Positions 1-17,124 of a stretch of DNA of 17,124 bases are shown here, one piece after another. The first letter of the stretch is position 1. Every line of letters starts with the position of its first letter. A program made the translations under genes and the position numbers. The stretch is from a virus: positions 1 through 17,124 of the IMG/VR virus record IMGVR_UViG_3300035544_000158. The stretch is one strand, 5' to 3'. The notes beneath the pieces were generated by a model. That model was not told where the DNA came from, ran no database searches, and saw only the letters and a list, made by a program, of their open reading frames with translations.

Positions 1-127
1 TATCGATACCAGTTAGGATTGATAGCTGGTGCGGGGATAGCTGCTATAACTAAATCGGTGTTCAGTGCTGGTGATGCCAGGGAAACAGTAAATAAATTCA
101 ATGTTGTATTTGGTGAGGTGTCTGATC
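1..127. repeat. Terminal redundancy, copy 1 (identical to 16998-17124)
   Basis: Base-by-base comparison of the window start and end shows 127/127 identical. This length is typical of the overlap left on circular contigs by a k=127 de Bruijn assembler. Confidence 0.95.
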
Positions 128-2289
128 AGACGAAAGATTGGGCTGATAAATATTCAAATCAGATTGGGCGTTCAAAATATGCGACAATGGACTGGCTCAA
201 CAGCTTTCAAGATGTTCTGGTACCAATGGGACTTGCCAGAGATGAAGCAGCTGCACTTTCCAAAGATATGGTTACTTTAGCAGCTGACTTAGGTTCCTTC
301 AACAATGTTGGTACAGCAGAAGCGGCCAGAGGAATGCAGTCAGCTTTAGTTGGAAACCACGAAGCGGTTAGAATGTTAGGTGCTCAGCTCAATGAAGAGA
401 ATCTTAATGCTAGAGCTGCAGCAATGGGTTTTAAGGAAAACTTTGCTCAACTAGACAGCTTATCGAAAATGCAAATTAGATACCAAGAAATAATTGCTCA
501 ATCTCAAGATTCAATAGGCGATGCAACAAGGACTGCAATGGAATGGAATAATCAGGTTCAGAGATTCAAGGGAACTATTCGAGATGTTTCAATCGCAATG
601 GGTTTTAATTTCATACCGAGATTTACAGAGGGACTAATAGTAGTTAATGATTTTTTAGATAGAATAGAACAGAGCGAGAAGCTTACGGCAGCAGCTAGAT
701 TCTTTACTATCGGTGTTGCAATTACAGGAATAGCTGCAGCAATCGGAATGGTGAGCTCTGCGTGGCCTATGATAGGGGCAATATTCAGCATTCAGGGTTT
801 TGCTATAGCTGGTGCAGTAACAGGCCTAGTTCTATTGCTGGAAGACTTGTGGGTTGGTCTTAACGGAGGTGAAGCAGTATTAAATCCACTGATAGACTTC
901 ACCAAAGAATATAAAAATGAGGTATTGGCTGTAGCTGGAGTAATAACGGCATTTTTTGCACCTGCAATATATTCTACAGCAATGCCAGCAGTCGGAGCGT
1001 TCGCTACAAGTTTATTTGTAAAGGGTAAAATAGCCTTAACCTCCTTTGCAAGTGGAATTTGGACTGCTATAACGGCCTCATTCGCTTTTTGGAAGGCTTT
1101 AATTACTAAAGCTGTTGTTGGTGTGGCAAGTTTTGCTACTTCGGTAGCTGGGGCTGCCTGGACTGCAGCAACTACCTTTGTTGGAGCAATAGGTTCAGCG
1201 ATTACGGCAACATTATCATTTACAGCTGCACTGTTGGCTAACCCTATAACTTGGGTAGTGATAGGGATTGCTGCTTTAGGTGCTGCACTCTATACTTTGT
1301 ATAAAAATTGGGATACAGTGAGTGAATTTCTAACCAATACCTGGAATTCGTTTATTGATACTCTTTCAGCTGGTGTCAGCTGGATAAAAGAGAAATTTAT
1401 TAACCTGCTGCCTGATGTTGACATGCCGAGCCTACCAGATATAGCTGCTGGAATAAAGAATAAATTTAATGAGGCTGTTCAATGGATAAAAGAGAATCCG
1501 CTGACAGTAGTTAGATTCTTAGTTCCTGCAGTCAATCTCCCAGATATAATAAATAAGATTTACGAGGCTGGAAGGCAATTCATAAAGGACAAAACAGGGT
1601 TAGAACTGCCTGCCTTAAAACTACCTACACTGCCTGATTTGGTGGGAGCAGTCAAAGGGGTTTGGAATAAGGGTAAAGAGTTTGTGGCTGGCCTGAATCC
1701 TTTTAAATTTCCTGATATACCTGATTTACCTGATCCAATAGCAAAGATTGATGAGTGGTCAGCTAGAATAAAAAGTAAATTAAGCAATATAGATTTTGGA
1801 TCTGCTTTAAAGACTGCTATTGAAAATGCTATGGATAAACTGCCAGGCTGGATGCAGGGAATGGCTAAGAAAGTAATGGACTATCTGCCTCAATCACCCG
1901 CGAAAGTGGGACCATTGAGCCAGTTAGACAGGGTAGGACCAGGACTCACTCAAACCATTGGAAAAGGTGTCGATAAGTCCAGAGAGCAAGTTACTGGACC
2001 ATTAAGCAGCATGTGGAATGAGTCAATGATTGCTGAGCCTAAAACTATTGTTAAAGATTATAACCCGATGACAGGTATATCTGACAGTGGTTTTGGAAAT
2101 AGTAAGTCTGTAACCACGAATAATTATAATAACAGCAATTCTCAGCAGCAAAGGTCAGTGAAAAAAGTGGATAAGATTGAAATTATTGTTCAGGACTCTG
2201 GGGATAGCAAGCAGACTGCTATTGATGTCAGAAAAGAAATTGAAAAATATTTTGACGGAGAGGCCACGGCATCTTTAGCCAGTAGTTAA
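1..2289 (+). CDS. Phage tail tape measure protein (TP901-type core), 3' portion; continuous with 16767..17124 across the junction (839 aa in total)
   Basis: The frame is open from base 1 and matches the frame of the ATG at 16767. FGEVSDQTKDWADKYSNQIGRSKYATMDWLNSFQDVLVPMGL...ALVGNHEAVRMLGAQL resembles the conserved N-terminal core of TP901-family tape measures. There is a ~200-aa Ala/Gly/Ile-rich multi-helix hydrophobic centre, the size fits, and a strong terminator follows. Confidence 0.75.
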   Translation, partial: YRYQLGLIAGAGIAAITKSVFSAGDARETVNKFNVVFGEVSDQTKDWADKYSNQIGRSKYATMDWLNSFQDVLVPMGLARDEAAALSKDMVTLAADLGSFNNVGTAEAARGMQSALVGNHEAVRMLGAQLNEENLNARAAAMGFKENFAQLDSLSKMQIRYQEIIAQSQDSIGDATRTAMEWNNQVQRFKGTIRDVSIAMGFNFIPRFTEGLIVVNDFLDRIEQSEKLTAAARFFTIGVAITGIAAAIGMVSSAWPMIGAIFSIQGFAIAGAVTGLVLLLEDLWVGLNGGEAVLNPLIDFTKEYKNEVLAVAGVITAFFAPAIYSTAMPAVGAFATSLFVKGKIALTSFASGIWTAITASFAFWKALITKAVVGVASFATSVAGAAWTAATTFVGAIGSAITATLSFTAALLANPITWVVIGIAALGAALYTLYKNWDTVSEFLTNTWNSFIDTLSAGVSWIKEKFINLLPDVDMPSLPDIAAGIKNKFNEAVQWIKENPLTVVRFLVPAVNLPDIINKIYEAGRQFIKDKTGLELPALKLPTLPDLVGAVKGVWNKGKEFVAGLNPFKFPDIPDLPDPIAKIDEWSARIKSKLSNIDFGSALKTAIENAMDKLPGWMQGMAKKVMDYLPQSPAKVGPLSQLDRVGPGLTQTIGKGVDKSREQVTGPLSSMWNESMIAEPKTIVKDYNPMTGISDSGFGNSKSVTTNNYNNSNSQQQRSVKKVDKIEIIVQDSGDSKQTAIDVRKEIEKYFDGEATASLASS

Positions 2290-2300
2290 AAGAAAATCGC

Positions 2301-2323
2301 GAGGGGAGAAATCCCCTCTTTTT
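2301..2323 (+). terminator. Rho-independent terminator after the tape measure gene
   Basis: GAGGGGA-gaaa-TCCCCTC perfect 7-bp GC-rich stem followed by TTTTT, 12 nt after the stop codon. Confidence 0.85.
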
Positions 2324-2367
2324 ACTGATAGATAGCATAAATCTTAAATAAAAAGAGATGTGATTAT

Positions 2368-2841
2368 ATGCAGGAGGAACTGACAAATCATGCAGATGTG
2401 GCTGACCATTTAAAATGCTATTTTAGTGGTGAGTTGGAAAAATCAATTAGACGGCTTAAGAGGCTGGTTGAAAGGGAATTCCCTGAGGACTATTATTGCA
2501 CGGTAAACGCTGTTAATCTGACACCTGGGAGGTCAAGTAATAGCACTGGTCATGCTGATTTTACGGCTTCAAGGGCAATTCATTTGGCTGATATTAGATT
2601 AACCAGGAAAAGAATTTATAAAAAGCATGTTGAACTGAGAGAAGGTATTAAAAAACAGCTGGAAAAGTATGATCAGGAAGTCATTGACCTATTAAAAGCC
2701 GATTTAGGACTTATTCAGGCCACTAAAACAGAGATAGTGAGTGCAGCAAGTTTTGGTTACAGCAAATCAAGAGTGATATTAAGTCAGGTTTTAAAAGAAT
2801 TAAGCACTGTAATTAGGAGGATTTTTGATGAATGCGATTGA
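2368..2841 (+). CDS. ArpU-like phage transcriptional regulator (putative late activator)
   Basis: 157 aa. The C-terminal segment EVIDLLKADLGLIQATKTEIVSAASFGYSKSRVILSQVLKEL has the sigma-region-4/ArpU-type layout (xxIxxLxY... GYSxxxV). Size and overall layout match ArpU-family proteins. Recognised by eye only. Confidence 0.4.
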   Translation: MQEELTNHADVADHLKCYFSGELEKSIRRLKRLVEREFPEDYYCTVNAVNLTPGRSSNSTGHADFTASRAIHLADIRLTRKRIYKKHVELREGIKKQLEKYDQEVIDLLKADLGLIQATKTEIVSAASFGYSKSRVILSQVLKELSTVIRRIFDECD

Positions 2842-3106
2842 AATCTTAGAAAATTACACAGATTTAAAGACAAAAAAAGAGCTTTTAGAATGCCAGGGGA
2901 AAGATAATTCAGAGCTGGAGGCTCAAATTAAATCTTATAACATAATTAAAAATTCATTATCTGAGAGAAAACAGAAAGTTTTGGAGCTGTATTTTGAGAA
3001 AGAGCACGAATATTATCGAATAGCAAGTGAAATTGGTTATAGTGTCAGCACTGTAAAAAGGGATATTAACGCAATCAAGTCAGAATTCAAGAAATATTTG
3101 GACTGA
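2828..3106 (+). CDS. Sigma-70 region-4-like HTH protein (RinA/ArpU/DUF1492-type small regulator)
   Basis: AGGAGG at 2815-2820 lies 7 nt before ATG 2828; the track start at 2825 is a TTG one codon upstream. LSERKQKVLELYFEKEHEYYRIASEIGYSVSTVKRDINAIKSEF is a classic region-4 type HTH. Confidence 0.5.
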   Translation: MNAIEILENYTDLKTKKELLECQGKDNSELEAQIKSYNIIKNSLSERKQKVLELYFEKEHEYYRIASEIGYSVSTVKRDINAIKSEFKKYLD

Positions 3107-3372: not shown

Positions 3373-3822
3373 ATGGAAGAATTAACTATCAAGGCAGCTG
3401 CTGAATACTATGGAAAAAGTGAGTCCTGGATAAGAAAAAGAATACTTTCAGGCGAATTGGAGGCAGAAAAAAGACCTTTTCAGTATGGAGAAAGATGGAT
3501 CACAACAGAAAAAGCACTGGACGATCTAGCAGAGAGACTGAATGAGCAGGCAAAAATGCAAAAAGACTCAGTGAACATCAGAGAAGTTTCAAAGCCAATA
3601 GGAAAAGAGCAATTTATCAATGAACTTATTGAGGCCACTGAGTCGAAAAATAAAGAAATGATAGATGATGCAGTTAATAAAGTAAGTGAGCAGTTTAAGC
3701 AGCAAAACAAACAGCTGCAGCAACAAAACGAGTTGATCAATAAACTATATGAGAAATTGGACCGAGTGGAGAAAAAGCAGGATAGAAGTTTAATCGACAA
3801 AATAAAACATTTTTTTAAGTGA
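3373..3822 (+). CDS. Excisionase/MerR-type HTH DNA-binding protein with C-terminal coiled coil
   Basis: AAGGAGGG SD. The N-terminus LTIKAAAEYYGKSESWIRKRILSGELEAEK...RWI is an HTH_17/Xis-like motif. The C-terminal half is Q/K/E-rich heptad-like sequence. Confidence 0.6.
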   Translation: MEELTIKAAAEYYGKSESWIRKRILSGELEAEKRPFQYGERWITTEKALDDLAERLNEQAKMQKDSVNIREVSKPIGKEQFINELIEATESKNKEMIDDAVNKVSEQFKQQNKQLQQQNELINKLYEKLDRVEKKQDRSLIDKIKHFFK

Positions 3823-4288: not shown

Positions 4289-4456
4289 ATGGAAGTTTTT
4301 TCAGCCGAGGAAGCAGCCGAAATTCTCAAAGTCAGTAAGAGAACTGTTTATAATGAAATAAAAAGAGGGAATTTAAAAGCGAAAAAAGTCGGCAATAGAT
4401 ACAGAATCCTTAAATCAGAGATTGAAAATTATATGAGAGATACTGAAAATAATTAA
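4289..4456 (+). CDS. Excisionase-family HTH protein (55 aa, below the ORF-track cutoff)
   Basis: GGAGG lies 7 nt upstream of the ATG. Translation is MEVFSAEEAAEILKVSKRTVYNEIKRGNLKAKKVGNRYRILKSEIENYMRDTENN. The xxEAAxxLxVSxxTVYxxIxxGxLxAxKxGxxxRI pattern is the canonical excisionase/HTH_17 signature. Confidence 0.85.
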   Translation: MEVFSAEEAAEILKVSKRTVYNEIKRGNLKAKKVGNRYRILKSEIENYMRDTENN

Positions 4457-4859: not shown

Positions 4860-5294
4860 ATGAGCAGAAAAATCGGTCGAACTAAAGAAAACGAATTAAT
4901 AAAAGTTTATTCTGCAGCTGAAAAATATGTTGTTGATATTGATGAGGTAACTATCGGCCAGTTTGATACACCAGGAGAAGCCGAGGAAGTGGCAAAAGTC
5001 GAAATGCTAAGGAGCTACGGCCTTGATTATGAACAGGCCAGAGAAATTGTCGGCTCAAATATAATTATCAGCTATAACTTTCTGAAAGACTGGAAAGAAA
5101 AGACTGATCAGAAAGTTGAGATAGTCCAAGAGGGCAACAAGTGGGTAACTAAAATAAACGGTGCTCCCAGAGGTGAATCCGATACCAAAGAAGATGCTGA
5201 AAGAACTGCTGATTTTATTCTTGTATCAAAACAGCACCCAAAATGGACTGTGCAGCAGTGTTGGGATTATGTAGATCAGGAAAGAGGGAGCTGA
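4860..5294 (+). CDS. Hypothetical protein with two DUF2188/AP2-like repeats
   Basis: AAGGAGG SD 6 nt upstream. Two internal copies of a K(Y/W)Vxx(I)xGxxxGxxDTxxxAExxA pattern: EKYVVDIDEVTIGQFDTPGEAEEVAK and NKWVTKINGAPRGESDTKEDAERTAD. Confidence 0.7.
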   Translation: MSRKIGRTKENELIKVYSAAEKYVVDIDEVTIGQFDTPGEAEEVAKVEMLRSYGLDYEQAREIVGSNIIISYNFLKDWKEKTDQKVEIVQEGNKWVTKINGAPRGESDTKEDAERTADFILVSKQHPKWTVQQCWDYVDQERGS

Positions 5295-5308
5295 AAGGAG
5301 GTGAGAAT

Positions 5309-5638
5309 TTGCTGAAACAAACTTATTATTTACAGCTTTTAGTAACAGCTGTTGAAAATGTAGTTGATGCCTATGATATTGTCGAGGAGCCAGACTTTAA
5401 TAGTGATATACAGCGAGAAATTCAAAAAATCGCAATGAAAACTGGTGAATCAGTCTTATTTGAGACAGAAATTAATGCTGAACTAATGAGCCTGAATTAC
5501 AAGCTGGGTCATTTAAACAGAGTTGAGAGTATAATTAATGATATGAAAGAGGAAATTGAAGGGAAAAGGACCGAACTCATTGATGAGCTGAATCTTGACA
5601 TTGAAAAGGAGGTGAGAAATGCTAAGAATAAAAAGTAG
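5309..5638 (+). CDS. Hypothetical coiled-coil protein
   Basis: AAGGAGGTG (5296-5304) precedes an in-frame TTG at 5309. The track's ATG at 5243 has no SD and would overlap the previous gene by 52 nt. Confidence 0.6.
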   Translation: MLKQTYYLQLLVTAVENVVDAYDIVEEPDFNSDIQREIQKIAMKTGESVLFETEINAELMSLNYKLGHLNRVESIINDMKEEIEGKRTELIDELNLDIEKEVRNAKNKK

Positions 5639-5780
5639 AATTCATGACAGAAAAACTGGTGAGATAATTAGTGAGGAAATTACAGACGAAGTTCCAGACA
5701 TCACTTTAGAAGAACTCAATCGGCCACTGGCTGAAATAATCTATAACAGGATCAAGGAAAAGAGAAAAAATAAAAATTAA
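5619..5780 (+). CDS. Small hypothetical protein (53 aa, below the ORF-track cutoff)
   Basis: AAGGAGGTG SD ends 5 nt before ATG 5619. Translation is MLRIKSRIHDRKTGEIISEEITDEVPDITLEELNRPLAEIIYNRIKEKRKNKN. It fills the gap between neighbouring genes and overlaps the upstream gene's end by 20 nt. Confidence 0.55.
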   Translation: MLRIKSRIHDRKTGEIISEEITDEVPDITLEELNRPLAEIIYNRIKEKRKNKN

Positions 5781-5795
5781 AGGTGGGATTTTAAG

Positions 5796-5981
5796 TTGGA
5801 TATTATTGAAGTAGAAGAAGTGCCAAATTATGAAGCAATACTTTACAGAACTGATAAAGGACATAAATATTTAGCATTTAATGCAGATTTAGAAGATTCA
5901 AGAAAAGATGAGATTAAGGAAGAAGCTAGAGAACTTGAATATAAAGTTTGGTTTAACAAGAATATATTAAAAAACGACTAA
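5796..5981 (+). CDS. Small hypothetical protein (TTG start)
   Basis: AGGTGGG SD (5781-5787) lies 8 nt before TTG 5796. 61 aa, acidic. Confidence 0.55.
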   Translation: MDIIEVEEVPNYEAILYRTDKGHKYLAFNADLEDSRKDEIKEEARELEYKVWFNKNILKND

Positions 5982-6023
5982 ATATGACATAAAAAGACAT
6001 TAAACTAAAAGGAGAGATGTAAA

Positions 6024-6194
6024 ATGTTATTAATTCAATTCGCTGATCTGGAAGGTATTGAGGGATATTACACCAATCTAGGGCAGGAAAGATTAACTTT
6101 AGACAACAGCATTTCAGCTGAAAGAGCAATGAAAATAGTCAAAAAAATAGAAAAAGACAGACCAACTCATAGTCAGCCTGTCTGCTGTGCTTAA
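6024..6194 (+). CDS. Small hypothetical protein (56 aa, below the ORF-track cutoff)
   Basis: AAAGGAGAG SD about 9 nt before ATG 6024. Translation is MLLIQFADLEGIEGYYTNLGQERLTLDNSISAERAMKIVKKIEKDRPTHSQPVCCA. Confidence 0.5.
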   Translation: MLLIQFADLEGIEGYYTNLGQERLTLDNSISAERAMKIVKKIEKDRPTHSQPVCCA

Positions 6195-6289
6195 TACTGC
6201 AATTGTGATTTTAACACAACTCTTGGGCGAGTTTTGTGCAGTAAAAGCAACAATTTAAAACTTCTTTTAAACATTATATCACATTCAGA

Positions 6290-6316
6290 GCTCCAGTGTA
6301 AAAGCTGGGGCTTTTC
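6290..6316 (+). terminator. Rho-independent terminator closing the 4860-6194 gene string
   Basis: GCTCCAG-tgtaaaag-CTGGGGC, a 7-bp stem with one G-U pair, followed by TTTT. Confidence 0.6.
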
Positions 6317-6337
6317 AATATGCTGCAAAAAAATATT

Positions 6338-6365
6338 TTGTACAAAATTTTAGATATGATAAAAT
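6338..6365 (+). promoter_or_regulatory. Extended -10 promoter overlapped by a 14-nt perfect palindrome
   Basis: TTGTAC (6338-6343), 16-nt spacer, TGATAAAAT (TGn + TAAAAT at 6360-6365). The palindrome ATTTTGTACAAAAT (6335-6348) covers the -35. Confidence 0.55.
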
Positions 6366-6431
6366 AAGTTTAATATTTGACATTCAGGTTAAAACCTCCG
6401 ACACAACAACTATCTTAGGGAGGTGGAAAGC

Positions 6432-6695
6432 GTGAATCAGAAACAGATTAGAAATTTTTTGAGGAACAGGAAAGAGAAACTTCGAAGAAGAAAGCAGAAT
6501 TTTAACAGTGCAGTAGAATTATTTGAAATAGATATTTGCATTCTTGAAATAGAAAAAATATTATACTTTATGGACCATGGAATTAAACCAGAAATTGCCG
6601 AAGATGCCCGAGAAACAGCTATTGTCAATCAGTTTATTAAGAAAGATGATAAATCGATTGCTGAAATTGAAAAAATAAATAATAGCAGATCATAA
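6432..6695 (+). CDS. Hypothetical basic/coiled-coil protein
   Basis: GGGAGGTGG SD (6418-6426). The in-frame GTG at 6432 has better spacing than the track's GTG at 6423. It forms a monocistronic unit between two terminators. Confidence 0.6.
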   Translation: MNQKQIRNFLRNRKEKLRRRKQNFNSAVELFEIDICILEIEKILYFMDHGIKPEIAEDARETAIVNQFIKKDDKSIAEIEKINNSRS

Positions 6696-10198: not shown

Positions 10199-11269
10199 TT
10201 AATCCTTCAAATTCTCAGCTTCTTTTATTGATATGTCGAGCCTCTCAGCTACTTCCTCCACAGTTTTTCTGCCGTCATTTAAATATTTTTTCCATCTGCT
10301 TTTAAGAGAATGATAATTTGTTGCACAGTTAGTAGTTTCGCAGAATTTTCTTTCCCTTCCACTGGTGTTCTCAACTGGGAACCAATCTCCACAATCTGGG
10401 TGATTACACTTTTTGAACTTTTTATTCCCTGTTATATCCTCAAAAAACTGCATATAAGCTACTGATAGCAAGGTTTTTGACTTATTAGCTGGCAGCAAAC
10501 TACTATTTTTTATTACTAAGTGAGGGTTAGTCAAGCTAAGGTGCTTATTTATATTAGCAGCAAGCATTTCTTTGGCTCTATCAACCGTTACTGCTTTACC
10601 GTTATTTTCAGTTAGTATATTTTTGATATACCAGGCTTTTGTATTATTCAAGTCAGGCAGCTCATTTTCCTGCAAACTTCCCCAGATTTCAACCCAACCC
10701 TGCAATTCTTCTACTGCTAATTTAAACATTTCGTAACTCTGGAAAGCATCACTATTAAGCCCTATATATTTTCTTTTTGGATAACATTCATCAAATGAAA
10801 TAACTTTTATTGGGTGAAAATCTGCTCCTAAAGACCCATATTTATTGCAGAATTCTATGATCTCATTATCATTATCGAGGTTCAATTTATTTAAATTAAG
10901 ATAGAATTTATTCTCAACATTCATTCCCTCATTATACGGATTATAGCCCTCCTTGCCACCATACCAGTGCTTTTTAATCTTTTCAGGTGAAGCAATAAAG
11001 AGACTTTCATCAGTCAGGTTATTGTAATCTTTATTGACACTCTCCACAAAGCTTTCCTTCAGCTTTTCTACTTCTTCAGAGATACTGGAAACTTTTTTAA
11101 TCTGATCTACTTCCCAGTCTGGTAGCTGGTTATTGTAATAATCGACCAGGTATTTATGATACAGCTGCTTGATCTTCTTAAACTTTAAAATTTTATAAGG
11201 ACCAAAATTATTGCTATCAATTCTGTTAATATCGACATTTTCTCCCTTAAATTGCTTTGTATAAGACAT
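10199..11269 (-). CDS. CGNR-type zinc-finger protein with C-terminal HTH; sits in the master-repressor position
   Basis: The only long minus-strand gene, divergent from the Cro-like gene. KKCNHPDCGDWFPVENTSGRERKFCETTNCATNYHSLKSRW follows the CGNR zinc-finger spacing (Cx4C...F...RxRxxC x4 C), with CATN in place of CGNR. The C-terminal RKTVEEVAERLDISIKEAENL is HTH-like. I do not recognise the N-terminal 280 aa. Confidence 0.45.
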   Translation of the reverse strand: MSYTKQFKGENVDINRIDSNNFGPYKILKFKKIKQLYHKYLVDYYNNQLPDWEVDQIKKVSSISEEVEKLKESFVESVNKDYNNLTDESLFIASPEKIKKHWYGGKEGYNPYNEGMNVENKFYLNLNKLNLDNDNEIIEFCNKYGSLGADFHPIKVISFDECYPKRKYIGLNSDAFQSYEMFKLAVEELQGWVEIWGSLQENELPDLNNTKAWYIKNILTENNGKAVTVDRAKEMLAANINKHLSLTNPHLVIKNSSLLPANKSKTLLSVAYMQFFEDITGNKKFKKCNHPDCGDWFPVENTSGRERKFCETTNCATNYHSLKSRWKKYLNDGRKTVEEVAERLDISIKEAENLKD

Positions 11270-11368: not shown

Positions 11369-11420
11369 TAGCTGAAAGAAAAAAATGATTTTATCTTTTA
11401 AAAAAGTGGAGGTGGATTTG

Positions 11421-11621
11421 GTGAATAGAGTTAGAGAATTTAGAAAGAAAAAAGGTTTAACACAGCTTGATTTGGCAGATATAACAGAGATTTATCAAAA
11501 TGACATTAGCCAAATTGAGACGGGAGGGAGAAAAGTTTTTCCAGGTTGGAGGAAAAGATTATCTGAGGCTCTGGAAGTGGAGGAAGAAATTCTTTTTCCT
11601 GATGAAGACGAGTTGAAATGA
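11421..11621 (+). CDS. XRE-family (Cro/cI-type) HTH regulator
   Basis: GGAGGTGG SD lies 5 nt before GTG 11421; the track's ATG at 11385 has no SD. VNRVREFRKKKGLTQLDLADITEIYQNDISQIETGGR is a canonical XRE HTH. Confidence 0.8.
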   Translation: MNRVREFRKKKGLTQLDLADITEIYQNDISQIETGGRKVFPGWRKRLSEALEVEEEILFPDEDELK

Positions 11622-11743: not shown

Positions 11744-12166
11744 ATGCTCAAGGCTAAAGGCTCAAAGAGGGAAAGACCAGTTAGCAGTAGCCCGACATTA
11801 TATTTTGGAATTGATGTCAGTCAGCTAAGCTTTAAAGAATTCAGAGCTGTTAGTTCAGAAGTCAGAACGATTATTGAGGATTCAATCGAGAAAGTAGAGA
11901 AAGAAAATTACTTTGCTCCCCGTAAATTGTCATTTTTGAAGTGGTTGCAAATCAAAATGGTAGGGAATGATCAGGAGAGAATGATTGAATCGCATAAATT
12001 AGCAGCTGATAAGTTAGGCAGTCTATTTGAAAGAAGTTTTATTTTACAGGAAATACTGTCAGAACAGCAATTAGAGACATTAATCAGCGAGGTAAAGGCT
12101 TACTGGATTAAAAAAGGGATTGAAGAAATCAAAAAAACTTATCCAGGCAGAATGAAAATATTTTAG
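11744..12166 (+). CDS. Hypothetical protein
   Basis: 140-aa ORF in the rightward operon. The AAGGAG SD has a longish 11-nt spacer. No motif recognised. Confidence 0.6.
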   Translation: MLKAKGSKRERPVSSSPTLYFGIDVSQLSFKEFRAVSSEVRTIIEDSIEKVEKENYFAPRKLSFLKWLQIKMVGNDQERMIESHKLAADKLGSLFERSFILQEILSEQQLETLISEVKAYWIKKGIEEIKKTYPGRMKIF

Positions 12167-12302: not shown

Positions 12303-13106
12303 ATGGGTTGGGTTAAACTGCACAGAGATATCTTAAATCACTGGGCTTATGATGATCCTGAAAAGCTAAAGGTCTGGATTACATTAATCGCCAAAGCTAC
12401 TCATAAAAAGCATACTCAAAATGTTGGTTATGAGTTAGCAAAGCTGGAGCCAGGACAGCTGGTGTTTGGCTTGATTAAGTTTTCTAAGTTAATTGATATA
12501 TCTAAATCAAAATTATACAGGATAATTAAGCTGCTGGAAAAAGACGAAATGATTGATTATGATACGGAAACCCACAAAGGAAACTTCTCTATAATTACTA
12601 TTAAAAATTGGGATAAATATCAACATGGGAAGGTGTCAAGCCCTACAGAACAGGGAGAACAAGAGGATAGTGAAAAGGAAGTGAAACGGGAGCGAAACGG
12701 CAGTGAAACGGCAGTGGAAACGAACAAGAATGTAAAGAACTTAAAGAATAAAGATCTATATAAATACGCAGATGAAATTCAGGCTGTACACAAACATTGG
12801 ATTGAATTGCTTGAGGACATTAACGCAGCTAACTTAACTAAAAAGCAGCAAAGGACTATTCTCACTAAACTAAAAAAATGGTCAGTTGAGGAAATCAAGC
12901 AGGCTATTTCAAATTATAACGAGGTTTACCGATCTGATTACTACTATAGCCACAATTTCACAATGTTTAAATTTATTAAGCAGGGAAACGGAGCTCCGAG
13001 GTTTTTACCTGGACTAGATGAAAAGCATGATGGGGATGTCTGGAAAGATTATTCAAAAAATAGAGGGGTTCCAAAAAGTAAACTACCACCAGACGAGTAC
13101 ATTTAG
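12303..13106 (+). CDS. Phage replisome organizer / replication initiation protein (N-terminal wHTH, DnaD/TIGR02220-like C-terminus)
   Basis: GWVKLHRDILNHWAYDDPEKLKVWITLIAKA...LEPGQLVFGLIKFSKLIDISKSKLYRIIKLLEKDEMI is the typical organizer N-domain. The C-terminal LTKKQQRTILTKLKKWSVEEIKQAISNY...FTMFKFIKQ resembles the conserved phage C-terminus. It sits directly upstream of the primase-helicase. Confidence 0.6.
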   Translation: MGWVKLHRDILNHWAYDDPEKLKVWITLIAKATHKKHTQNVGYELAKLEPGQLVFGLIKFSKLIDISKSKLYRIIKLLEKDEMIDYDTETHKGNFSIITIKNWDKYQHGKVSSPTEQGEQEDSEKEVKRERNGSETAVETNKNVKNLKNKDLYKYADEIQAVHKHWIELLEDINAANLTKKQQRTILTKLKKWSVEEIKQAISNYNEVYRSDYYYSHNFTMFKFIKQGNGAPRFLPGLDEKHDGDVWKDYSKNRGVPKSKLPPDEYI

Positions 13107-13117
13107 GAGGTTAAGCA

Positions 13118-14878
13118 ATGGATCCACGGGAATTAGCTGATTTATATTTAGGAGAATATAAGGACAAAGGGAATGAAATCAATGCTAAGAACTGCCCTTT
13201 TTGTGGACCGAATCCAAAGAGGGATAATCAATATAAATTTTTTATGAACAAGGAAACTGGAGCCTATAAGTGCTACAGAGAGAATCATTGTGGAGCCGAG
13301 GGTGGATTTAAAGATTTATTAGAGCACTTCGGGGAAGAGGATTATGACAATTATTATAAACCGAAAAAGAAAAAATATAAAAAGCCTAAAGTTTCAAATA
13401 CTACCGAGGTAAAAGGGAAGGTTGCTGAGTATTTAAAAAAGCGTGGAATCAGCGAAAAGACTTGGAACAACAAATATCTTGAAGCTAAAAATGGTCGAAT
13501 AGTTTTTAAATATTTTAAGAATGATGAACTGGTATTAGTAAAATATCGGTCAGCTGATAAAAAGAAAAAATACAGTGCTGAACCAGGAGGAAAACCAGTT
13601 CTTTGGGGAATAGATGAGGTTGATCCTAATGAAAGTGTGATTATTACAGAGGGTGAATTCGATAAATTAGCAATTGAGGAATGTGGAATCGACAATGTTG
13701 TCAGTGTGCCAATGGGTTCCAATAATCTAAAGTGGATAGAGCACGACTGGTCAGTCCTGGAGAAGGTCAAAGAGTTTATTATTTGGCCAGATAATGATGA
13801 AGCAGGAATGAAAATGAAAAATGAAGTAGTCAACAGGCTGGGAAAGCACAGGTGTAAAGTAGTTAAGTCGGAAATGAAAGATGCTAATCTCTTAATGTTC
13901 AAAAAAGGGAAGCAGGCAATCTACAATGCCTTAGATAATGCAGAGTTTGAGCCGATTGACAATGTAATTAGAATGGCAGATGTCGAGCCCCTTAAATTAA
14001 ATCAGATAGACAGCTGTCCTTCCAGTGTTCCAGCACTCAACAGGGTTCTTGGTGGTTTTATGATGGGATATATCACGGTCTGGACTGGTAAGAATTCAAG
14101 TGGTAAATCCACGCTGCTAAATCAAGAAATACTGGAGGCAATAGATCAGGGTTACGGTGTCGGATTGTATTCAGGAGAATTAAATGCCGATTTAGTTCAA
14201 AAGTGGATAGCATATCAGGCAGCAGGACCTCAAAATTTAGAATATGAATATCATGATCTAAAAAAAGAGGAAATGCCCGAGGTTCCAGATGATGTAATGG
14301 AAAAAATCAGAAAATGGTATGGTGATAATTTCTTTTACTATGACCTCAATTCCAGCACTAAGCCAAAGAAAATATTAAATACTTTTGAGAATTTATATAA
14401 GCAATATGGGACTAAAATTTTTGTAATAGATAACATAATGACCCCAGAATATGGTGGAAGTGGCAGTGAATATATGCATCGGCAAAGCAGATTTGTTACA
14501 GCTATTAAACAATTTGCTCAGAGATTAAATGTTCATGTTCATATTGTAGCACACCCGAGAAAATCTAAAGGAAAAGTTGAAAAAGAAGATGTGGCAGGAT
14601 TGTACGAGATAACTAATAAAACAGACAACTTAGTCGCTTTTCATAGAGTTACTAAAAATAATATTGATATTTTTGATGATGAGATTAAGAACAGATATAT
14701 AGAATTGAACCAGCTGGAAGATAAGCCAAAAGATTTTAATGTGGTAGAAGTTCAGAAATCAAGGATTTACGGCTGGCAAAATGTAAAATCAGCTCTAAAA
14801 TTTGATGTGGATTCAAAGAGGTTTTATCCGTTCAATTCGAGGACTCTAAAAAATAAAAAGTATGGGTGGGAAAAATGA
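13118..14878 (+). CDS. Bifunctional DNA primase-helicase (T7 gp4/Twinkle-like: Zn ribbon + Toprim + SF4 RecA-like helicase)
   Basis: Zn motif CPFCG...CYRENHCG. Toprim ITEGEFDKLA and IWPDNDEAG. Walker A GKNSSGKST, Walker B IFVIDNIM, then HIVAHPRK. Confidence 0.85.
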   Translation: MDPRELADLYLGEYKDKGNEINAKNCPFCGPNPKRDNQYKFFMNKETGAYKCYRENHCGAEGGFKDLLEHFGEEDYDNYYKPKKKKYKKPKVSNTTEVKGKVAEYLKKRGISEKTWNNKYLEAKNGRIVFKYFKNDELVLVKYRSADKKKKYSAEPGGKPVLWGIDEVDPNESVIITEGEFDKLAIEECGIDNVVSVPMGSNNLKWIEHDWSVLEKVKEFIIWPDNDEAGMKMKNEVVNRLGKHRCKVVKSEMKDANLLMFKKGKQAIYNALDNAEFEPIDNVIRMADVEPLKLNQIDSCPSSVPALNRVLGGFMMGYITVWTGKNSSGKSTLLNQEILEAIDQGYGVGLYSGELNADLVQKWIAYQAAGPQNLEYEYHDLKKEEMPEVPDDVMEKIRKWYGDNFFYYDLNSSTKPKKILNTFENLYKQYGTKIFVIDNIMTPEYGGSGSEYMHRQSRFVTAIKQFAQRLNVHVHIVAHPRKSKGKVEKEDVAGLYEITNKTDNLVAFHRVTKNNIDIFDDEIKNRYIELNQLEDKPKDFNVVEVQKSRIYGWQNVKSALKFDVDSKRFYPFNSRTLKNKKYGWEK

Positions 14879-15078
14879 TAAATTTAAAATTTGTATCCGA
14901 TAAAATCCACGACATACAGCTAAAGAACAACGATAATTGGGAAGAGACAGCCAGGGATTTAAGGGAAATTGAAAAGGACCTGATGTCAGTGCTTAAATAT
15001 GTAAAAGATTGTCGAAAGATTTATGAAAGCTACACCGAAGAAGAATTAAAAAATATTTTTGATGAGGTGATCAAATGA
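14875..15078 (+). CDS. Small hypothetical protein
   Basis: ATG 14875 overlaps the helicase stop (ATGA). The track's start at 14866 is a GTG with no SD. Confidence 0.55.
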   Translation: MINLKFVSDKIHDIQLKNNDNWEETARDLREIEKDLMSVLKYVKDCRKIYESYTEEELKNIFDEVIK

Positions 15079-15365
15079 GAGGATTCGCTAAGCTACTAAA
15101 AGATATTGATAATATTAAAAGGCAAAATAATGCCAGTAATCAGGAAATGTCAGTATTATTGGCTAAAATAAGCAATCACTATAGAGAACGAGCTGAACCA
15201 AATCAGAGAAAGAGGTTGATCAGTGAGACAAAAGATAAAATTGAAACTGCTTTAACCTTTGTTGAAGCCCTGGAAGCAGAAAGAGGCAGCGTTTTCACTC
15301 ATGAAGCAAGGGAAGTTATCACTGATATTGGTGATTATTTAGACGAGATAGAAAAATACAGTTAG
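15075..15365 (+). CDS. Small hypothetical helical protein
   Basis: ATGA start/stop overlap with the previous ORF. GAGGTGA SD. Confidence 0.6.
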   Translation: MRGFAKLLKDIDNIKRQNNASNQEMSVLLAKISNHYRERAEPNQRKRLISETKDKIETALTFVEALEAERGSVFTHEAREVITDIGDYLDEIEKYS

Positions 15366-15375: not shown

Positions 15376-15918
15376 ATGTTAGCAACTAAATTAGCTTATC
15401 GCTACACTAAAGGCGAAATGAAAGAACTTTTAAAGAGTTTGACCGTTCTCATTGACACCAGGGAGCAGGCCAACACTCACATTCAGGGATATTTCGATAG
15501 TAAATGTATAGATCATAAAAGCAAAAAGCTTGATTTTGGTGATTACAGCTTCATGTTACCGAGGAATGATGAGCTGGGGATCATGAGAGATATTTATTTT
15601 ATGGACCAGATAGCGATAGAAAGAAAAGCTAGCTTAACAGAATTGAGCAATAATTTTACTCACGATAGAACTCAGTTTGAGAACGAGTTAATCAGGTCGA
15701 ATGGGAGCAAATTAATTCTACTGGTAGAGAATGCAGCAGGGTATGAGGATATTATTGAGCATAATTACAGGACTCAGTATAAGCCAAAAAGTTTTCTGGC
15801 CACGCTGCATTCATTTAAACACCGTTATGACCTTGATACTGTGTTCATAAAGCCCGAAATAGCAGGAGATTACATTTATCGAAGTTTATATTATTGGCTT
15901 AGAGAATACCTTAAATAA
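15376..15918 (+). CDS. ERCC4 (XPF/Mus81-type) domain nuclease
   Basis: AGGAGG SD. LIDTREQ ... GDYSF ... IERKASLTELSNNF matches the GDxn-ERK signature. The acidic residue after ERKxxx is shifted by one (Thr-Glu). Confidence 0.55.
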   Translation: MLATKLAYRYTKGEMKELLKSLTVLIDTREQANTHIQGYFDSKCIDHKSKKLDFGDYSFMLPRNDELGIMRDIYFMDQIAIERKASLTELSNNFTHDRTQFENELIRSNGSKLILLVENAAGYEDIIEHNYRTQYKPKSFLATLHSFKHRYDLDTVFIKPEIAGDYIYRSLYYWLREYLK

Positions 15919-15942: not shown

Positions 15943-16161
15943 ATGGAAAATAGCAAAGTGATTTATTTAGATAGATTTAAAGGAGAGGGAAAAGGGAAAA
16001 ATGAATGCAGCAGACTTAGAAATAAAATTATCCAGGCTCTAAGAGAGGAAAATTATTTTGATAACCCAGATGCCCCAAGCAGAATTGAAATAAATATTTC
16101 CTTGAGTAAAAGCAAAAATAATAAAAAAACAGAGATATTTATTAGGCAAACTGATGAATAG
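15943..16161 (+). CDS. Small hypothetical protein
   Basis: AAGGAGG SD 8 nt upstream. 72 aa, basic. Confidence 0.55.
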   Translation: MENSKVIYLDRFKGEGKGKNECSRLRNKIIQALREENYFDNPDAPSRIEINISLSKSKNNKKTEIFIRQTDE

Positions 16162-16265
16162 TCGCAGTTTCTGCAGGCCCTAAAAAGAGCAAATTTAATA
16201 ATAGTCGGAGTTTTCGGAGCCCCTAAAAAAGGATAAACCGAGTTTTCCGAGGCCTTAAAAAAGAG
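16158..16265. repeat. Three direct ~32-nt repeats (A-boxes)
   Basis: ATAGTCGCAGTTTCTGCAGGCCCTAAAAAGAG (16158-16189), ATAGTCGGAGTTTTCGGAGCCCCTAAAAAAGG (16201-16232), ATAAACCGAGTTTTCCGAGGCCTTAAAAAAGAGA (16233-16266). Each holds an internal 5-mer duplicated across TTTT and ends in GCCyTAAAAAAG. Confidence 0.7.
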
Positions 16266-16275
16266 AGAGTTTGCT

Positions 16276-16430
16276 GACACGGTTATGCGTGCGAGACTAA
16301 AACTTAACAAAACTTCACATTGAGAGACTTACAAAAGCTTACATTGGATACCTGAAAAAACCTGAGATTGAGTAGAGTTTGGTAACACGATAGACGCGTG
16401 AGAATGTTTACATATGTTGACATTGGAGAG
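16276..16430. repeat. Second set of direct repeats (B/C boxes)
   Basis: ACACGGTTATGCGTGCGAGA (16277-) resembles ACACGATAGACGCGTGAGAA (16384-). ACTTAACAAAACTTCACATTGAGA (16302-) resembles ACTTACAAAAGCTTACATTGGATA (16327-). ACATTG(G)AGAG occurs three times (16317, 16341, 16421). Confidence 0.6.
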
Positions 16431-16438
16431 TAAAGGAG

Positions 16439-16741
16439 GTGATTATTATCAAGTCTAAACAGGTAAAGGTTAAGGGTGAAGATTACTTAATCAAGAATCC
16501 TGGTGCCAGATGGATCATAAAATTAGACGATGAATTAAAGAATAGTGGTGAAAACTTTGGTTCGTATGATTTGAAAGATTTCTCTGATAGGCTGCTGAGT
16601 AAGGTAGTTGACGGGGAACTGCCAGCTGATGAAGAAGTGCAAGAAAAATTATTTAATGAAACATTGAAATTTATTGGTTTGTCGATAAAAGAGGAAACTA
16701 TTGACGGTGAAAAGATAATGTATTTTGACTTTGAGCCTTAA
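16439..16741 (+). CDS. Tail assembly chaperone-like protein (gpG-like), tentative
   Basis: About 100 aa and acidic, immediately upstream of the tape measure. KQVKVKGEDYLIKNPGARWIIKLDDEL resembles the N-terminus of siphoviral TACs. The start is uncertain: GTG 16439 abuts AAGGAGG but lies 8 nt after GGAGAG (16425-16430). Confidence 0.4.
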   Translation: MIIIKSKQVKVKGEDYLIKNPGARWIIKLDDELKNSGENFGSYDLKDFSDRLLSKVVDGELPADEEVQEKLFNETLKFIGLSIKEETIDGEKIMYFDFEP

Positions 16742-16766
16742 TAGATTACAGAGAGGTGTTTAAGTT

Positions 16767-17124
16767 ATGACAGGAGGTTCACAGAGAAGTTTACATTTCA
16801 AAGTTGGATTCGGAATTAATGACAGGCCACTCACTCAGGCCGATAGACGAGTTGATGATTTTAAGCAGAGTGTGGTCAGGGCTACTGACAGAATGGGAGC
16901 CTTAGAGAGAAAAGCATATACTGCTGGCCGAGCTATGTCCAATGCTTTCAGTGGTGTTAAAAGAGCAATGGGTCGAGGGATTGCATTACTTGAAAGATAT
17001 CGATACCAGTTAGGATTGATAGCTGGTGCGGGGATAGCTGCTATAACTAAATCGGTGTTCAGTGCTGGTGATGCCAGGGAAACAGTAAATAAATTCAATG
17101 TTGTATTTGGTGAGGTGTCTGATC
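16767..17124 (+). CDS. Tape measure protein, 5' portion (continues at base 1 via the circular junction)
   Basis: GAGAGG SD lies 10 nt before ATG 16767. The ORF is open to the window end and in frame with 1..2289. Bases 16998-17124 duplicate 1-127. Confidence 0.75.
   Translation, partial: MTGGSQRSLHFKVGFGINDRPLTQADRRVDDFKQSVVRATDRMGALERKAYTAGRAMSNAFSGVKRAMGRGIALLERYRYQLGLIAGAGIAAITKSVFSAGDARETVNKFNVVFGEVSD
16998..17124. repeat. Terminal redundancy, copy 2 (identical to 1-127)
   Basis: 127/127 identity with the window start. Confidence 0.95.

What the first reader, a model, noticed from the sequence alone, without database searches (positions are those of the whole stretch)
1..17124. Whole window is an integrase-less, capsid-less 17-kb circular phage-derived element: candidate episomal phage satellite
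The gene inventory comprises regulators (XRE/Cro-like, two excisionase-type HTH, two ArpU/sigma-r4-like), two replication modules and an ERCC4-like nuclease. From the virion module there is only a TAC-like ORF plus a tape measure. Nothing resembles terminase, portal, major capsid, major tail, baseplate, holin/endolysin or a tyrosine/serine recombinase. 17 kb cannot encode a tailed virion, but it is in the size range of known satellites (P4 ~11.6 kb, SaPIs ~15-17 kb, PLEs ~18 kb). The order leftward repressor-like gene / rightward cro-like gene / xis-like genes / rep followed directly by iterons mirrors the PICI plan. It differs from the satellite families I know in three ways. It has no integrase, which suggests plasmid-like maintenance and fits the Rep-iteron replicon and two TA-like loci. 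It has no capsid-remodelling or small-terminase gene. Its only structural cargo is a tape measure.
Basis: partly seen in the sequence, partly recalled or inferred. Interest (0 to 1): 0.85.

Follow-up and report, generated by a model that had tools for sequence, protein, structure and literature searches.

The report
Plasmid-borne phage satellite with tape measure
This 17-kb circle is most likely a small Halanaerobium plasmid that rides on a resident tailed phage: it carries that phage's tail-length ruler gene and short copies of its DNA-packaging signals, but has no capsid, packaging enzyme or integrase of its own.

Summary
The window is a 16,997-bp circle closed by a 127-bp assembler overlap. 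A second contig of the same sequence has a different breakpoint. At least 35 related contigs of 16.3-17.8 kb come from many samples.

Pfam, PHROGs, NCBIfam and PADLOC find no capsid, portal, terminase, lysis gene or recombinase.

The satellite reading gains three independent supports:
- The tape measure is about 61-63% identical over its full length to that of a temperate contractile-tailed phage of about 48 kb. One such phage contig comes from the same metagenome.
- The non-coding array at 16160-16405 holds 20-28-nt blocks nearly identical to sequences inside three alternative terS genes of that phage lineage. None of 1000 shuffles gave any such hit.
- A chromosomal, integrase-bearing, PICI-like island in a Halanaerobiales MAG shares the regulatory and replication module.

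The Rep protein belongs to a small-replicon family never seen on contigs longer than 17.1 kb. Relatives of about 9 kb lack the tape measure but keep the blocks.

Best reading: an episomal satellite packaged through pac-site mimicry that builds chimeric tails. Satellite tape measures and pac mimicry are already known in PLEs, so this is a new variant of a known kind. Nothing here is experimental.

The parts
1..127 (.). Assembler overlap. It is identical to 16998-17124 and closes the sequence into a 16,997-bp circle.
   Evidence: Exact 127-nt terminal repeat. L001 carries the same sequence with a different breakpoint.
16767..17124 (+). Tape measure protein gene, 5' part. The ORF continues across the circle junction into position 128 onward.
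   Evidence: Continuous 839-aa ORF. PHROG tape-measure hits. About 61-63% identity with full coverage to myophage tape measures.
1..2289 (+). Tape measure protein gene, remainder (839 aa in total). It is a mosaic. The N-terminal 350 aa are 50-88% identical to the phage protein. The hydrophobic core, residues 351-550, is of another type. Residues 551-800 are 60-100% identical to the phage protein. The last 39 aa are specific to the elements.
   Evidence: dN/dS of 0.09-0.27 within the family.
2301..2318 (+). Terminator-like hairpin that ends the chaperone-like/tape measure transcription unit.
2368..2841 (+). 157-aa conserved ORF, a possible late-regulator partner. It has no HMM hit of its own. 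Homologues sit in the 9-kb relatives and in the integrated island L052.
2825..3106 (+). 93-aa protein similar to sigma-70 region 4, DUF722 and phrog_36 regulators.
3373..3822 (+). 149-aa protein with a MerR/excisionase-type winged helix followed by a long coiled coil. It is a DNA-binding protein of unknown role and was not shown to be a small terminase.
4289..4456 (+). 55-aa HTH_17 (excisionase-type) protein, preceded by a strong sigma-70-like promoter at 4230-4258.
4860..6695 (+). Run of six small ORFs of unknown function. The 53-aa ORF at 5619-5780 is 75% identical to an ORF of the candidate helper.
7218..8819 (+). Plasmid-type replication initiator (533 aa): primase-polymerase-like N-terminus plus a C-terminal winged HTH.
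   Evidence: 116 homologue clusters, all on contigs of 17.1 kb or less.
8813..9013 (.). Three tandem 67-bp repeats (iterons) immediately after rep. This is the putative plasmid origin.
9193..9582 (+). 129-aa RNase H-like protein.
   Evidence: NCBIfam RNase HI 1e-7. phrog_531.
10199..11269 (-). 356-aa leftward gene with a weak C-terminal CGNR zinc-finger match, divergent from the XRE gene. It is inferred to be the master regulator (Stl-like position). Homologues occur only in this family and in the integrated island L052.
11385..11621 (+). XRE/Cro-like HTH regulator.
11744..12166 (+). 140-aa conserved ORF of unknown function.
12303..13106 (+). DnaD/O-like initiator. Its N-terminal 142 aa are 56% identical to the helper's initiator. 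Internal 11-bp tandem repeats at 12664-12724 form a putative phage-type origin.
13118..14878 (+). Toprim primase fused to a DnaB-like helicase.
14866..15365 (+). Two small conserved ORFs (70 aa and 96 aa) of unknown function.
15376..15918 (+). ERCC4-type nuclease, the most conserved protein of the family. It always sits just upstream of the block array.
15943..16161 (+). 72-aa ORF of unknown function.
16162..16265 (+). Three tandem 'A' units. The best copy, 16238-16263 (CCGAGTTTTCCGAGGCCTTAAAAAAG), matches 25 of 26 nt inside the type-A terS gene of the helper lineage (L019 8218-8243).
16267..16294 (+). 'B' block, GAGTTTGCTGACACGGTTATGCGTGCGA. It matches 26 of 28 nt inside the type-B (P22 gp3-like) terS gene (L021 4961-4988). 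A diverged second copy lies at 16375-16403.
16350..16369 (+). 'C' block, ACCTGAAAAAACCTGAGATT. It matches 20 of 20 nt inside the type-C (Terminase_2) terS gene (L018 2330-2349). It is invariant in all 17-kb family members.
16439..16741 (+). 100-aa homologue of the ORF in the chaperone slot upstream of the phage tape measure. It is inferred to be a tail assembly chaperone.
   Evidence: dN/dS of 0.21-0.27.

Best explanation
The window is a complete, circular, extrachromosomal element of Halanaerobium (order Halanaerobiales). It behaves as a phage satellite carried on a plasmid replicon.

Shown by sequence:
- It is a 16,997-bp circle.
- It has a plasmid-type Rep with 67-bp iterons. It also has a second, phage-type module: a DnaD/O-like initiator with internal iterons, plus a primase-helicase.
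- It has no integrase, capsid, portal, terminase or lysis gene.
- Its tape measure and the adjacent chaperone-slot ORF are homologous to those of a temperate myophage of about 48 kb that carries a serine recombinase. One contig of this phage comes from the same sample.
- A conserved non-coding array holds short, near-identical copies of sequences from inside three alternative terS genes of that phage lineage.

Inferred mechanism:
1. In uninfected or lysogenic cells the element replicates as a plasmid from Rep and its iterons. The divergent pair of the 356-aa gene and the XRE gene keeps the rightward operon quiet.
2. When the helper is induced or infects, the phage-type module produces concatemers. 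The ERCC4 nuclease may process branched DNA.
3. The helper's own TerS recognises the mimic blocks, and TerL fills full-size helper heads with element multimers. Three units total 51 kb, about 105% of the 48.4-kb helper genome.
4. The element's tape measure and chaperone replace the helper's in otherwise helper-made contractile tails. At 839 aa against 787-789 aa, the element's tape measure would make the tail slightly longer.
5. Carrying three kinds of block would let the element use whichever terminase module the local helper variant has.
For: Circularity and the family.

Absence of virion, lysis and recombinase genes.

Plasmid-type Rep. All 116 homologue clusters lie on contigs of 17.1 kb or less, and several are named Halanaerobiales. 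An 8,996-bp circular relative with the same core is L051.

Candidate helper:
- Its tape measure is 59-65% identical by tblastn and lies inside complete myophage structural modules.
- One contig is from the same JGI sample, 3300035042.
- The phage is temperate: serine recombinase, XRE repressor and an ImmA-like protein.
- A 707-nt stretch of the tape measure's C-terminal part is 88% identical to the phage, against about 70% elsewhere. That points to recent exchange.
- The tape measure and the chaperone-like ORF are under purifying selection.

The blocks:
- Three hits of at least 40 bits, all inside terS genes. None of 1000 dinucleotide shuffles gave any such hit.
- terS identities: P22 gp3-like at 1e-16 and Terminase_2 at 5e-39.
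- The B and C blocks are invariant across diverged family members while the flanks vary.
- Across 1.07 Mb of fetched loci, the blocks occur only in element arrays and in terS genes.
- They are also present in the 9-kb relatives that lack the tape measure.

An integrated PICI-like cousin shares the 356-aa gene, XRE, DnaD, helicase, ERCC4 and the 157-aa ORF, and adds an integrase, TerS, HNH and a head protease.

Precedents:
- PLE satellites encode a tape measure and a chaperone and build chimeric tails on a myophage (PMC12987554).
- PLE needs a 14-bp pac mimic for transduction. P4, SaPIbov5 and EfCIV583 also mimic packaging signals (PMC11417361).
- That P22 and SPP1 have their pac sites within or at terS is established knowledge, not tested here.
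Against: - Nothing is experimental.
- The pac sites of these phages have not been mapped, so calling the blocks pac mimics is an inference from their position in terS.
- No clear promoter was found for the chaperone-like/tape measure unit.
- The trigger for induction is unknown.
- The 356-aa gene could not be assigned a fold (pLDDT 57).
- The 9-kb relatives lack the tape measure, so it is not essential to the family's way of life.
- No interference or capsid-resizing gene is recognisable.
- Host and helper are assigned by MAG binning, co-occurrence and homology only.
- No coverage or virome data were available.
Confidence: 0.62

Rival explanations
1. It is an ordinary small plasmid that picked up phage DNA by recombination: the tape measure, the chaperone-like ORF, the DnaD domain and fragments of terS. 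It has no dependence on a helper. Any transfer by phage is incidental generalised transduction.
For: The Rep family is a widespread small-replicon family. The 9-kb relatives have no structural gene. The tape measure is a mosaic, which shows recombination with phages.
Against: - The tape measure and the chaperone-like ORF stay intact under purifying selection across 56-90% divergence.
- The three terS-derived blocks are invariant in non-coding DNA while their flanks drift. They come from three different terS types and are tandemly repeated. Decaying gene remnants would not look like this.
- The regulatory and replication module is shared with an integrase-bearing PICI-like island.
Confidence: 0.17
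2. It is a plasmid-borne anti-phage defence. The tape measure and chaperone act as decoys that poison tail assembly of the related myophage, and the terS-like blocks titrate its small terminase. The host population is protected, and the element is not itself transmitted in particles.
For: Interference with tail assembly is a documented defence strategy (PMC11364771, listed; Rta in PMC12987554). The element-specific C-terminal 39 aa of the tape measure could make it dominant-negative.
Against: No PADLOC hit. Defence and satellite spread are not mutually exclusive, as PLEs do both. Conservation of three kinds of block fits being packaged better than titration. The second, phage-type replication module is hard to explain by defence alone.
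Confidence: 0.12
3. It is an assembly artefact, or a fragment or deletion derivative of a full-length phage or prophage.
For: The circle is inferred only from assembler overlaps. The join falls inside a gene type that is often repetitive.
Against: - At least 35 contigs from different samples and assemblers (overlaps of 127 and 53 nt; k141 contig names) have different breakpoints and the same gene order.
- No member lies on a contig longer than 20 kb.
- The gene order cannot be derived from the helper by simple deletion.
Confidence: 0.04

Closest known systems
[quoted passage not shown]
   Same: - About 17-18 kb, parasitising a contractile-tailed phage.
- Encodes its own tape measure and tail assembly chaperone and relies on the helper for every other tail part (PMC12987554).
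- Carries a short mimic of the helper's pac site (PMC11417361).
- Has its own initiator and iteron origin, and a nuclease gene.
   Different: - PLEs integrate with a large serine recombinase, use a RepA_N initiator, and encode a capsid-resizing scaffold (TcaP), packaging proteins (Gpi, GpsA, GpsB) and a baseplate hub. None of these is detectable here.
- This element's tape measure is about 61-63% identical to the helper's, against about 20% for PLE.
- It has a plasmid replicon.
- It has three kinds of mimic block.
- The host is an anaerobic halophile of the order Halanaerobiales.
- No homology to PLE proteins was seen.
PICI / SaPI (phage-inducible chromosomal islands of Gram-positive bacteria)
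   Same: A divergent regulator pair is followed by a replication module, in the 10-18 kb size range, with dependence on helper virion genes. An integrated cousin (L052) has the full PICI layout. Some PICIs (SaPIbov5, EfCIV583) are packaged through mimicry of the helper signal and without capsid resizing.
   Different: There is no integrase or att site, no terS, and no cpm/ppi-type genes. The element is extrachromosomal with a plasmid Rep and iterons. It carries tail genes.
P4 (satellite of P2)
   Same: It can be maintained as a multicopy plasmid, has its own primase-helicase and carries the helper's packaging signal.
   Different: P4 has an integrase, Sid/Psu capsid resizing, the delta/epsilon transactivators and a cos site. 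No homology was detected here. P4 has no tape measure.
EPIPs (11-kb satellites of Mycolicibacterium prophage HerbertWM; preprint PMC12822802)
   Same: A small satellite that carries a tape measure gene. Its particles have tails of altered length.
   Different: EPIPs encode a serine integrase, a small terminase, a major capsid protein, a scaffold and head-tail connectors. None of these is present here.
Small iteron plasmids of Halanaerobiales (the Rep family found) and the 9-kb relatives L051 and L033
   Same: The same Rep family, ERCC4, the 157/93/149/55-aa regulator set and the terS-like blocks.
   Different: The window adds three things: the chaperone-like ORF with the tape measure; the DnaD-like initiator with the primase-helicase; and the 356-aa/XRE regulator pair.

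Membership tests
Phage satellite (general definition) | Lacks the genes needed to build a virion. | tested here: met
   No capsid, portal, terminase, tube, sheath, baseplate or lysis hits in Pfam, PHROGs or NCBIfam.
Phage satellite (general definition) | Is packaged and transferred in particles made by a helper phage. | not testable with these tools
   Only indirect evidence: terS-internal mimic blocks, a shared tape measure and chaperone-slot ORF, and co-occurrence in sample 3300035042.
PICI | Integrase at one end and site-specific chromosomal integration. | tested here: not met
   No recombinase hit. All family contigs are circular and 17.8 kb or less. The cousin L052 does have a tyrosine integrase.
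PICI | Divergent regulator pair followed by a replication module with its own origin. | tested here: met
   The 356-aa gene (minus strand) faces XRE, followed by the DnaD-like gene with internal iterons and the primase-helicase.
PICI | A packaging or interference module (terS, cpm/ppi, or capsid genes in cf-PICIs). | tested here: not met
   No TerS or capsid hit. The 149-aa HTH protein resembles Xis, MerR and RacA rather than a small terminase.
PLE | Large serine recombinase, RepA_N initiator, and TcaP/Gpi/Gps genes. | tested here: not met
   No such Pfam or PHROG hits. No direct comparison with PLE protein sequences was run.
PLE | Own tape measure and chaperone used in chimeric tails on a myophage helper. 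| tested here: inconclusive
   The genes are present, intact and under purifying selection, and are homologous to those of a myophage. Incorporation into tails could not be tested.
PLE | Mimicry of the helper's pac site. | tested here: inconclusive
   20-28-nt near-identical matches to three terS genes, with 0 of 1000 shuffles giving any such hit. The helper's pac site has not been mapped.
P4-like satellites | Sid/Psu/Delta genes, integrase and cos site. | tested here: not met
   No hits in PHROGs or Pfam.
Phage-plasmid | A complete virion and lysis module on a plasmid replicon. | tested here: not met
   The plasmid replicon is present, but the only virion genes are the tape measure and the chaperone-like ORF.
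Iteron plasmid | Rep initiator with adjacent iterons, on a small circular extrachromosomal molecule. | tested here: met
   Rep at 7218-8819 with 3 x 67-bp repeats. Circle. The Rep family occurs only on contigs of 17.1 kb or less. Replication itself was not tested.

The most novel reading that the evidence does not exclude
A family of Halanaerobiales plasmids has become obligate riders on phage. Its conserved backbone would carry a modular 'multi-pac' array: tandem mimics of the packaging-recognition sequences of at least three alternative terminase modules circulating in one temperate myophage lineage. The plasmid would then be packaged by whichever helper variant it meets. The 17-kb branch has additionally captured the helper's tape measure and chaperone, and keeps recombining them with the helper, to build its own chimeric tails. 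This would be an integrase-free route to satellite status that starts from a plasmid rather than from a chromosomal island.
Probability: 0.45. Interest if true: 0.78.

Novelty: new variant of a known kind. Interest (0 to 1): 0.66.

Why it matters
If this is correct, satellites need not be chromosomal islands. A plain iteron plasmid could gain phage-mediated spread merely by collecting short packaging-signal mimics.

It would also show that tail-gene capture, reported for Vibrio PLEs only in 2026, arose independently in an unrelated anaerobic halophile.

The three kinds of block give a direct, testable prediction of where three different small terminases bind. They may also explain how a satellite copes when its helper swaps terminase modules.

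Relatives of these elements are held in IMG/VR as viral contigs. Recognising them as satellites would change how such contigs are counted in the saline subsurface communities where I believe Halanaerobium dominates; that ecological point is from my own knowledge and was not tested here.

Tried and rejected
- Megablast of the whole circle against GenBank phages and PLSDB plasmids found nothing.
- Rfam gave no hit and no tRNA was found.
- PADLOC found no defence system.
- The 'TA-like loci' have no support in any library.
- Is the 149-aa HTH protein the element's own small terminase? Weak PHROG hints (phrog_57, 5e-4) did not hold up. It shows no similarity to the helper's TerS. The profile search against the PDB hits only the Pukovnik Xis HTH. 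A confident AlphaFold model (pLDDT 84) matches generic MerR, Xis, RacA and BldC winged helices. The idea is left open but is not supported.
- Is the 356-aa leftward gene a hidden recombinase or capsid protein? It has no HMM hit beyond a weak CGNR zinc finger. Its homologues occur only within the family. The model is mostly helical but of low confidence (pLDDT 57), so I ran no fold search.
- Are the blocks remnants of a decayed terS gene? I rejected this because they are tandemly repeated, come from three non-homologous or allelic terS types, and are the most conserved columns of the region.
- Other intergenic regions of the element give no significant match to the phage.
- No convincing sigma-70 promoter was found for the chaperone-like/tape measure unit.

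Full report
**1. What is in the window**

The 17,124-nt window begins and ends with the same 127 nt. That overlap is what I would expect from a k=127 de Bruijn assembler, which is my own inference. The unique sequence is a 16,997-bp circle.

The same sequence exists as a second JGI contig (L001, 17,050 bp, sample 3300035042). It is broken at window position 3144 and has a 53-nt overlap instead.

One ORF crosses the junction. It runs from the ATG at 16767 to the stop at 2289 and encodes 839 aa. It is a tape measure protein (phrog_1535, 1e-31, plus about ten other tape-measure PHROGs).

G+C is 30-42%. All genes but one lie on the plus strand. There are no tRNAs and no Rfam hits.

**2. Gene inventory** (Pfam, PHROGs, NCBIfam and PADLOC)

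Going clockwise from the tape measure:
- A terminator at 2301-2318.
- A 157-aa ORF with no HMM hit.
- A 93-aa sigma-70 region-4/DUF722-like protein.
- A 149-aa MerR/excisionase-type winged helix with a coiled coil.
- A 55-aa HTH_17 protein behind a strong promoter.
- Six small unknown ORFs.
- A 533-aa Rep with a primase-polymerase-like N-terminus and a winged-HTH C-terminus, followed directly by three 67-bp tandem repeats.
- An RNase H-like ORF.
- A leftward 356-aa gene with a weak CGNR zinc-finger match.
- A rightward XRE regulator.
- A 140-aa unknown ORF.
- A DnaD/O-like initiator that contains five 11-bp repeats.
- A Toprim-DnaB primase-helicase (phrog_239, 5e-92).
- Two small ORFs.
- An ERCC4 nuclease (phrog_3490, 5e-59).
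- A 72-aa ORF.
- 277 nt of non-coding repeats.
- A 100-aa ORF directly upstream of the tape measure.

Nothing matches capsid, portal, terminase, tube, sheath, baseplate, holin, lysin or any recombinase. The 'two TA-like loci' have no support. The 157-aa ORF cannot be called ArpU-like on HMM evidence.

**3. It is a family of circles, not a fragment**

Close tape measure homologues (87-90% identical) lie on contigs of 17.4-17.8 kb. One cluster alone is indexed in 34 contigs, and 33 of these are 10-20 kb long. They come from ENA, JGI, Logan and IMG/VR samples, have different breakpoints and share the same gene order.

A more distant member, L013 (16,353 bp, tape measure 56% identical), keeps the synteny but has swapped both replication proteins.

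Cluster members are annotated in MAGs of Halanaerobium sp. and Halanaerobium sp. MDAL1. No member sits on a contig longer than 20 kb.

Rep homologues form 116 clusters. All lie on contigs of 17.1 kb or less, and several are named Halanaerobiales, Halanaerobiaceae or Halarsenatibacteraceae. This is the signature of a small extrachromosomal replicon family.

**4. The candidate helper**

Tape measures about 61-63% identical over their full length (59-65% by tblastn) lie inside complete contractile-tail structural modules. The gene order is: TerL, portal, Mu F-like protein, cement protein, major capsid protein, tail terminator, E217-type sheath, PhiTE-type tube, two chaperone-slot ORFs, tape measure, Dit-like protein, sheath initiator, baseplate J, a DGR and a lysin. 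These phage contigs are 46-48 kb long.

One of them, IMGVR_UViG_3300035042_000091 (48,392 bp), comes from the same metagenome as the L001 copy of the element. Walking along it shows a large serine recombinase, an XRE repressor, an ImmA-like protease and an antirepressor-like gene. It is therefore a temperate phage.

Besides the tape measure, the element shares three things with this phage:
- The chaperone-slot ORF: 32% identity over 59 aa, and the same phrog_1778.
- The 53-aa ORF at 5619-5780, 75% identical.
- The N-terminal 142 aa of the DnaD-like initiator, 56% identical. Both genes carry internal 11-bp repeats, but of different sequence.

The tape measure is a mosaic:
- Residues 1-350 are 50-88% identical to the phage protein.
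- The hydrophobic core, residues 351-550, is of a different type. It is 52-64% identical to another prophage's tape measure over residues 351-500.
- Residues 551-800 are 60-100% identical to the phage protein. A 707-nt stretch is 88% identical at the DNA level, against about 70% elsewhere.
- The last 39 aa are specific to the elements.

Within the family the tape measure and the chaperone-like ORF evolve under purifying selection, with dN/dS of 0.09-0.27.

**5. The non-coding array matches terS genes**

BLAST of the element's intergenic regions against the phage loci gave significant hits only for 16162-16438, and all three lie inside small-terminase genes.

The phage lineage has portals 93-100% identical but carries three alternative terminase modules:
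- Type A: a 165-aa TerS with a 474-aa TerL.
- Type B: a 121-aa P22 gp3-like TerS (PF16677, 1e-16) with a Terminase_3 TerL.
- Type C: a Terminase_2 TerS (PF03592, 5e-39) with a Terminase_3 TerL.

The element carries a matching block for each type:
- An A block matching 25 of 26 nt, with two further diverged tandem copies.
- A B block matching 26 of 28 nt, with a second diverged copy.
- A C block matching 20 of 20 nt.

The A and B blocks map to the homologous position of the two TerS proteins.

Controls:
- None of 1000 dinucleotide-preserving shuffles of the region produced any hit of 40 bits or more. The real sequence produced three.
- In 1.07 Mb of fetched loci, the blocks occur only in element arrays and in these terS genes.
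- In an alignment of diverged family members, the B and C blocks are invariant while the surrounding non-coding DNA varies.

Pac sites inside or at terS are established for P22 and SPP1; I recall this and did not test it. Satellites that copy helper packaging signals are documented: P4, SaPIbov5, EfCIV583, and PLE with 14 identical bp (PMC11417361). I therefore read the array as a set of pac-site mimics for three helper terminase types. The helper pac sites themselves are unmapped, so this step is an inference.

**6. Relatives that frame the interpretation**

A scan of GTDB genomes with the ERCC4 protein found two informative relatives.

The first is an 8,996-bp circle binned in a Bacillota MAG (L051, with a 127-nt overlap). 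It has Rep, ERCC4, the 157/93/149/55-aa set, and A-, B- and C-like blocks after ERCC4. It has no tape measure, no DnaD or primase-helicase, and no 356-aa gene. L033 looks like a similar unit of about 9.3 kb.

The second is an integrated island of about 15 kb in a Halanaerobiales MAG (L052), next to ksgA. It has a 356-aa-gene homologue facing an XRE gene (64% identical), then DnaD, DnaB and ERCC4 (72% identical). It also has a head-maturation protease, an HNH nuclease, a P27-type TerS, a 157-aa-ORF homologue and a tyrosine integrase. That is a classical PICI-like layout.

The window therefore looks like a plasmid backbone that has combined with a satellite-type regulatory and replication module and with the helper's tape measure cassette.

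**7. Mechanism**

Shown: the anatomy, the homologies, the circularity and the co-occurrence.

Inferred: plasmid maintenance from Rep and its iterons; a switch to phage-type replication on helper activity; recognition of the mimic blocks by the helper's TerS; headful packaging of multimers into unmodified heads (3 x 17.0 kb = 51 kb, about 105% of the helper genome); and substitution of the element's tape measure and chaperone into helper tails, as demonstrated for PLE11 (PMC12987554).

Why a satellite benefits from its own tape measure is unknown even for PLEs. Possible reasons are escape from defences or exclusion systems that target the tape measure, or interference with the helper.

**8. Comparison and novelty**

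Functionally the closest known system is PLE: own tape measure and chaperone, a pac mimic, a myophage helper. Architecturally the closest are PICIs, and P4 for its plasmid state.

The element fails the membership tests of all three. It has no integrase and none of their signature genes.

A satellite-borne tape measure was reported in 2025-26 for PLEs, PLE-like elements, some cf-PICIs and EPIPs. That feature is therefore not new.

What appears new is the combination: an integrase-free plasmid replicon as the satellite chassis; an array of mimics for three alternative terminase modules; and ongoing recombination of the tape measure with the helper. The host group is one for which no satellite paper turned up.

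I rate it a new variant of a known kind.

**9. Limits**

There is no coverage, virome, long-read or experimental evidence. The host is assigned by binning and homology. The 356-aa regulator, the 149-aa HTH protein and most small ORFs remain functionally unassigned.

Noticed in passing
L019 8067-9985; L021 4796-6410; L018 2071-3913: Phages with portals 93-100% identical carry three unrelated terminase modules: type A (165-aa TerS with 474-aa TerL), type B (P22 gp3-like TerS with Terminase_3 TerL) and type C (Terminase_2 TerS with Terminase_3 TerL). Packaging modules are being swapped within one lineage.
   Followed up: partly
L003 19454-21260; L065 1874-3662: The candidate helper myophage carries a diversity-generating retroelement (bAvd plus a reverse transcriptase) downstream of its tail-fibre region.
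   Followed up: no
L052 about 3500-18600 (JADQBT010000007.1, Halanaerobiales MAG Soudan_29): An integrated PICI-like island next to ksgA. It carries a tyrosine integrase, a head-maturation protease, HNH, a P27-type TerS, DnaD and DnaB, ERCC4, and homologues of the window's 356-aa and 157-aa genes.
   Followed up: partly
L051 (VENI01000014.1, 9,123 bp) and L033 (IMGVR_UViG_3300028378_000401): Circular relatives of about 9 kb have the same Rep, ERCC4, regulator set and terS-like blocks, but no tape measure and no phage-type replication module. L033 appears to be two variants about 88% identical, merged by the assembler into 1.3 unit lengths.
   Followed up: partly
window 12664-12724 and L063 7233-7313: The DnaD/O-like initiator genes of both the element and the helper contain arrays with an 11-bp period at the same position, just after a shared N-terminal domain. 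The repeat sequences differ. This resembles lambda-type origins inside the initiator gene, each with its own specificity.
   Followed up: partly
window 8813-9013: Each 67-bp iteron has conserved ends and a variable G+C-rich centre that could form a small hairpin. I did not examine whether the centre matters.
   Followed up: no
window 9583-10198: 615 nt of non-coding DNA between the RNase H-like ORF and the 3' end of the 356-aa gene, with convergent terminator-like hairpins (10033-10063 on the plus strand, 9888-9865 on the minus strand). No function is assigned.
   Followed up: no
window 1-2289 compared with L013 3958-6627: Family members differ in the type of tape measure core and in length (839, 841 and 889 aa). 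L013 carries the phage-type core plus extra C-terminal repeats. If these proteins are used, tail lengths should differ between members.
   Followed up: partly
IMG/VR entries 3300042790_000002, 3300043035_000022, 3300009194_000480: Members of this family are held in IMG/VR as viral genomes or fragments (UViGs).
   Followed up: no
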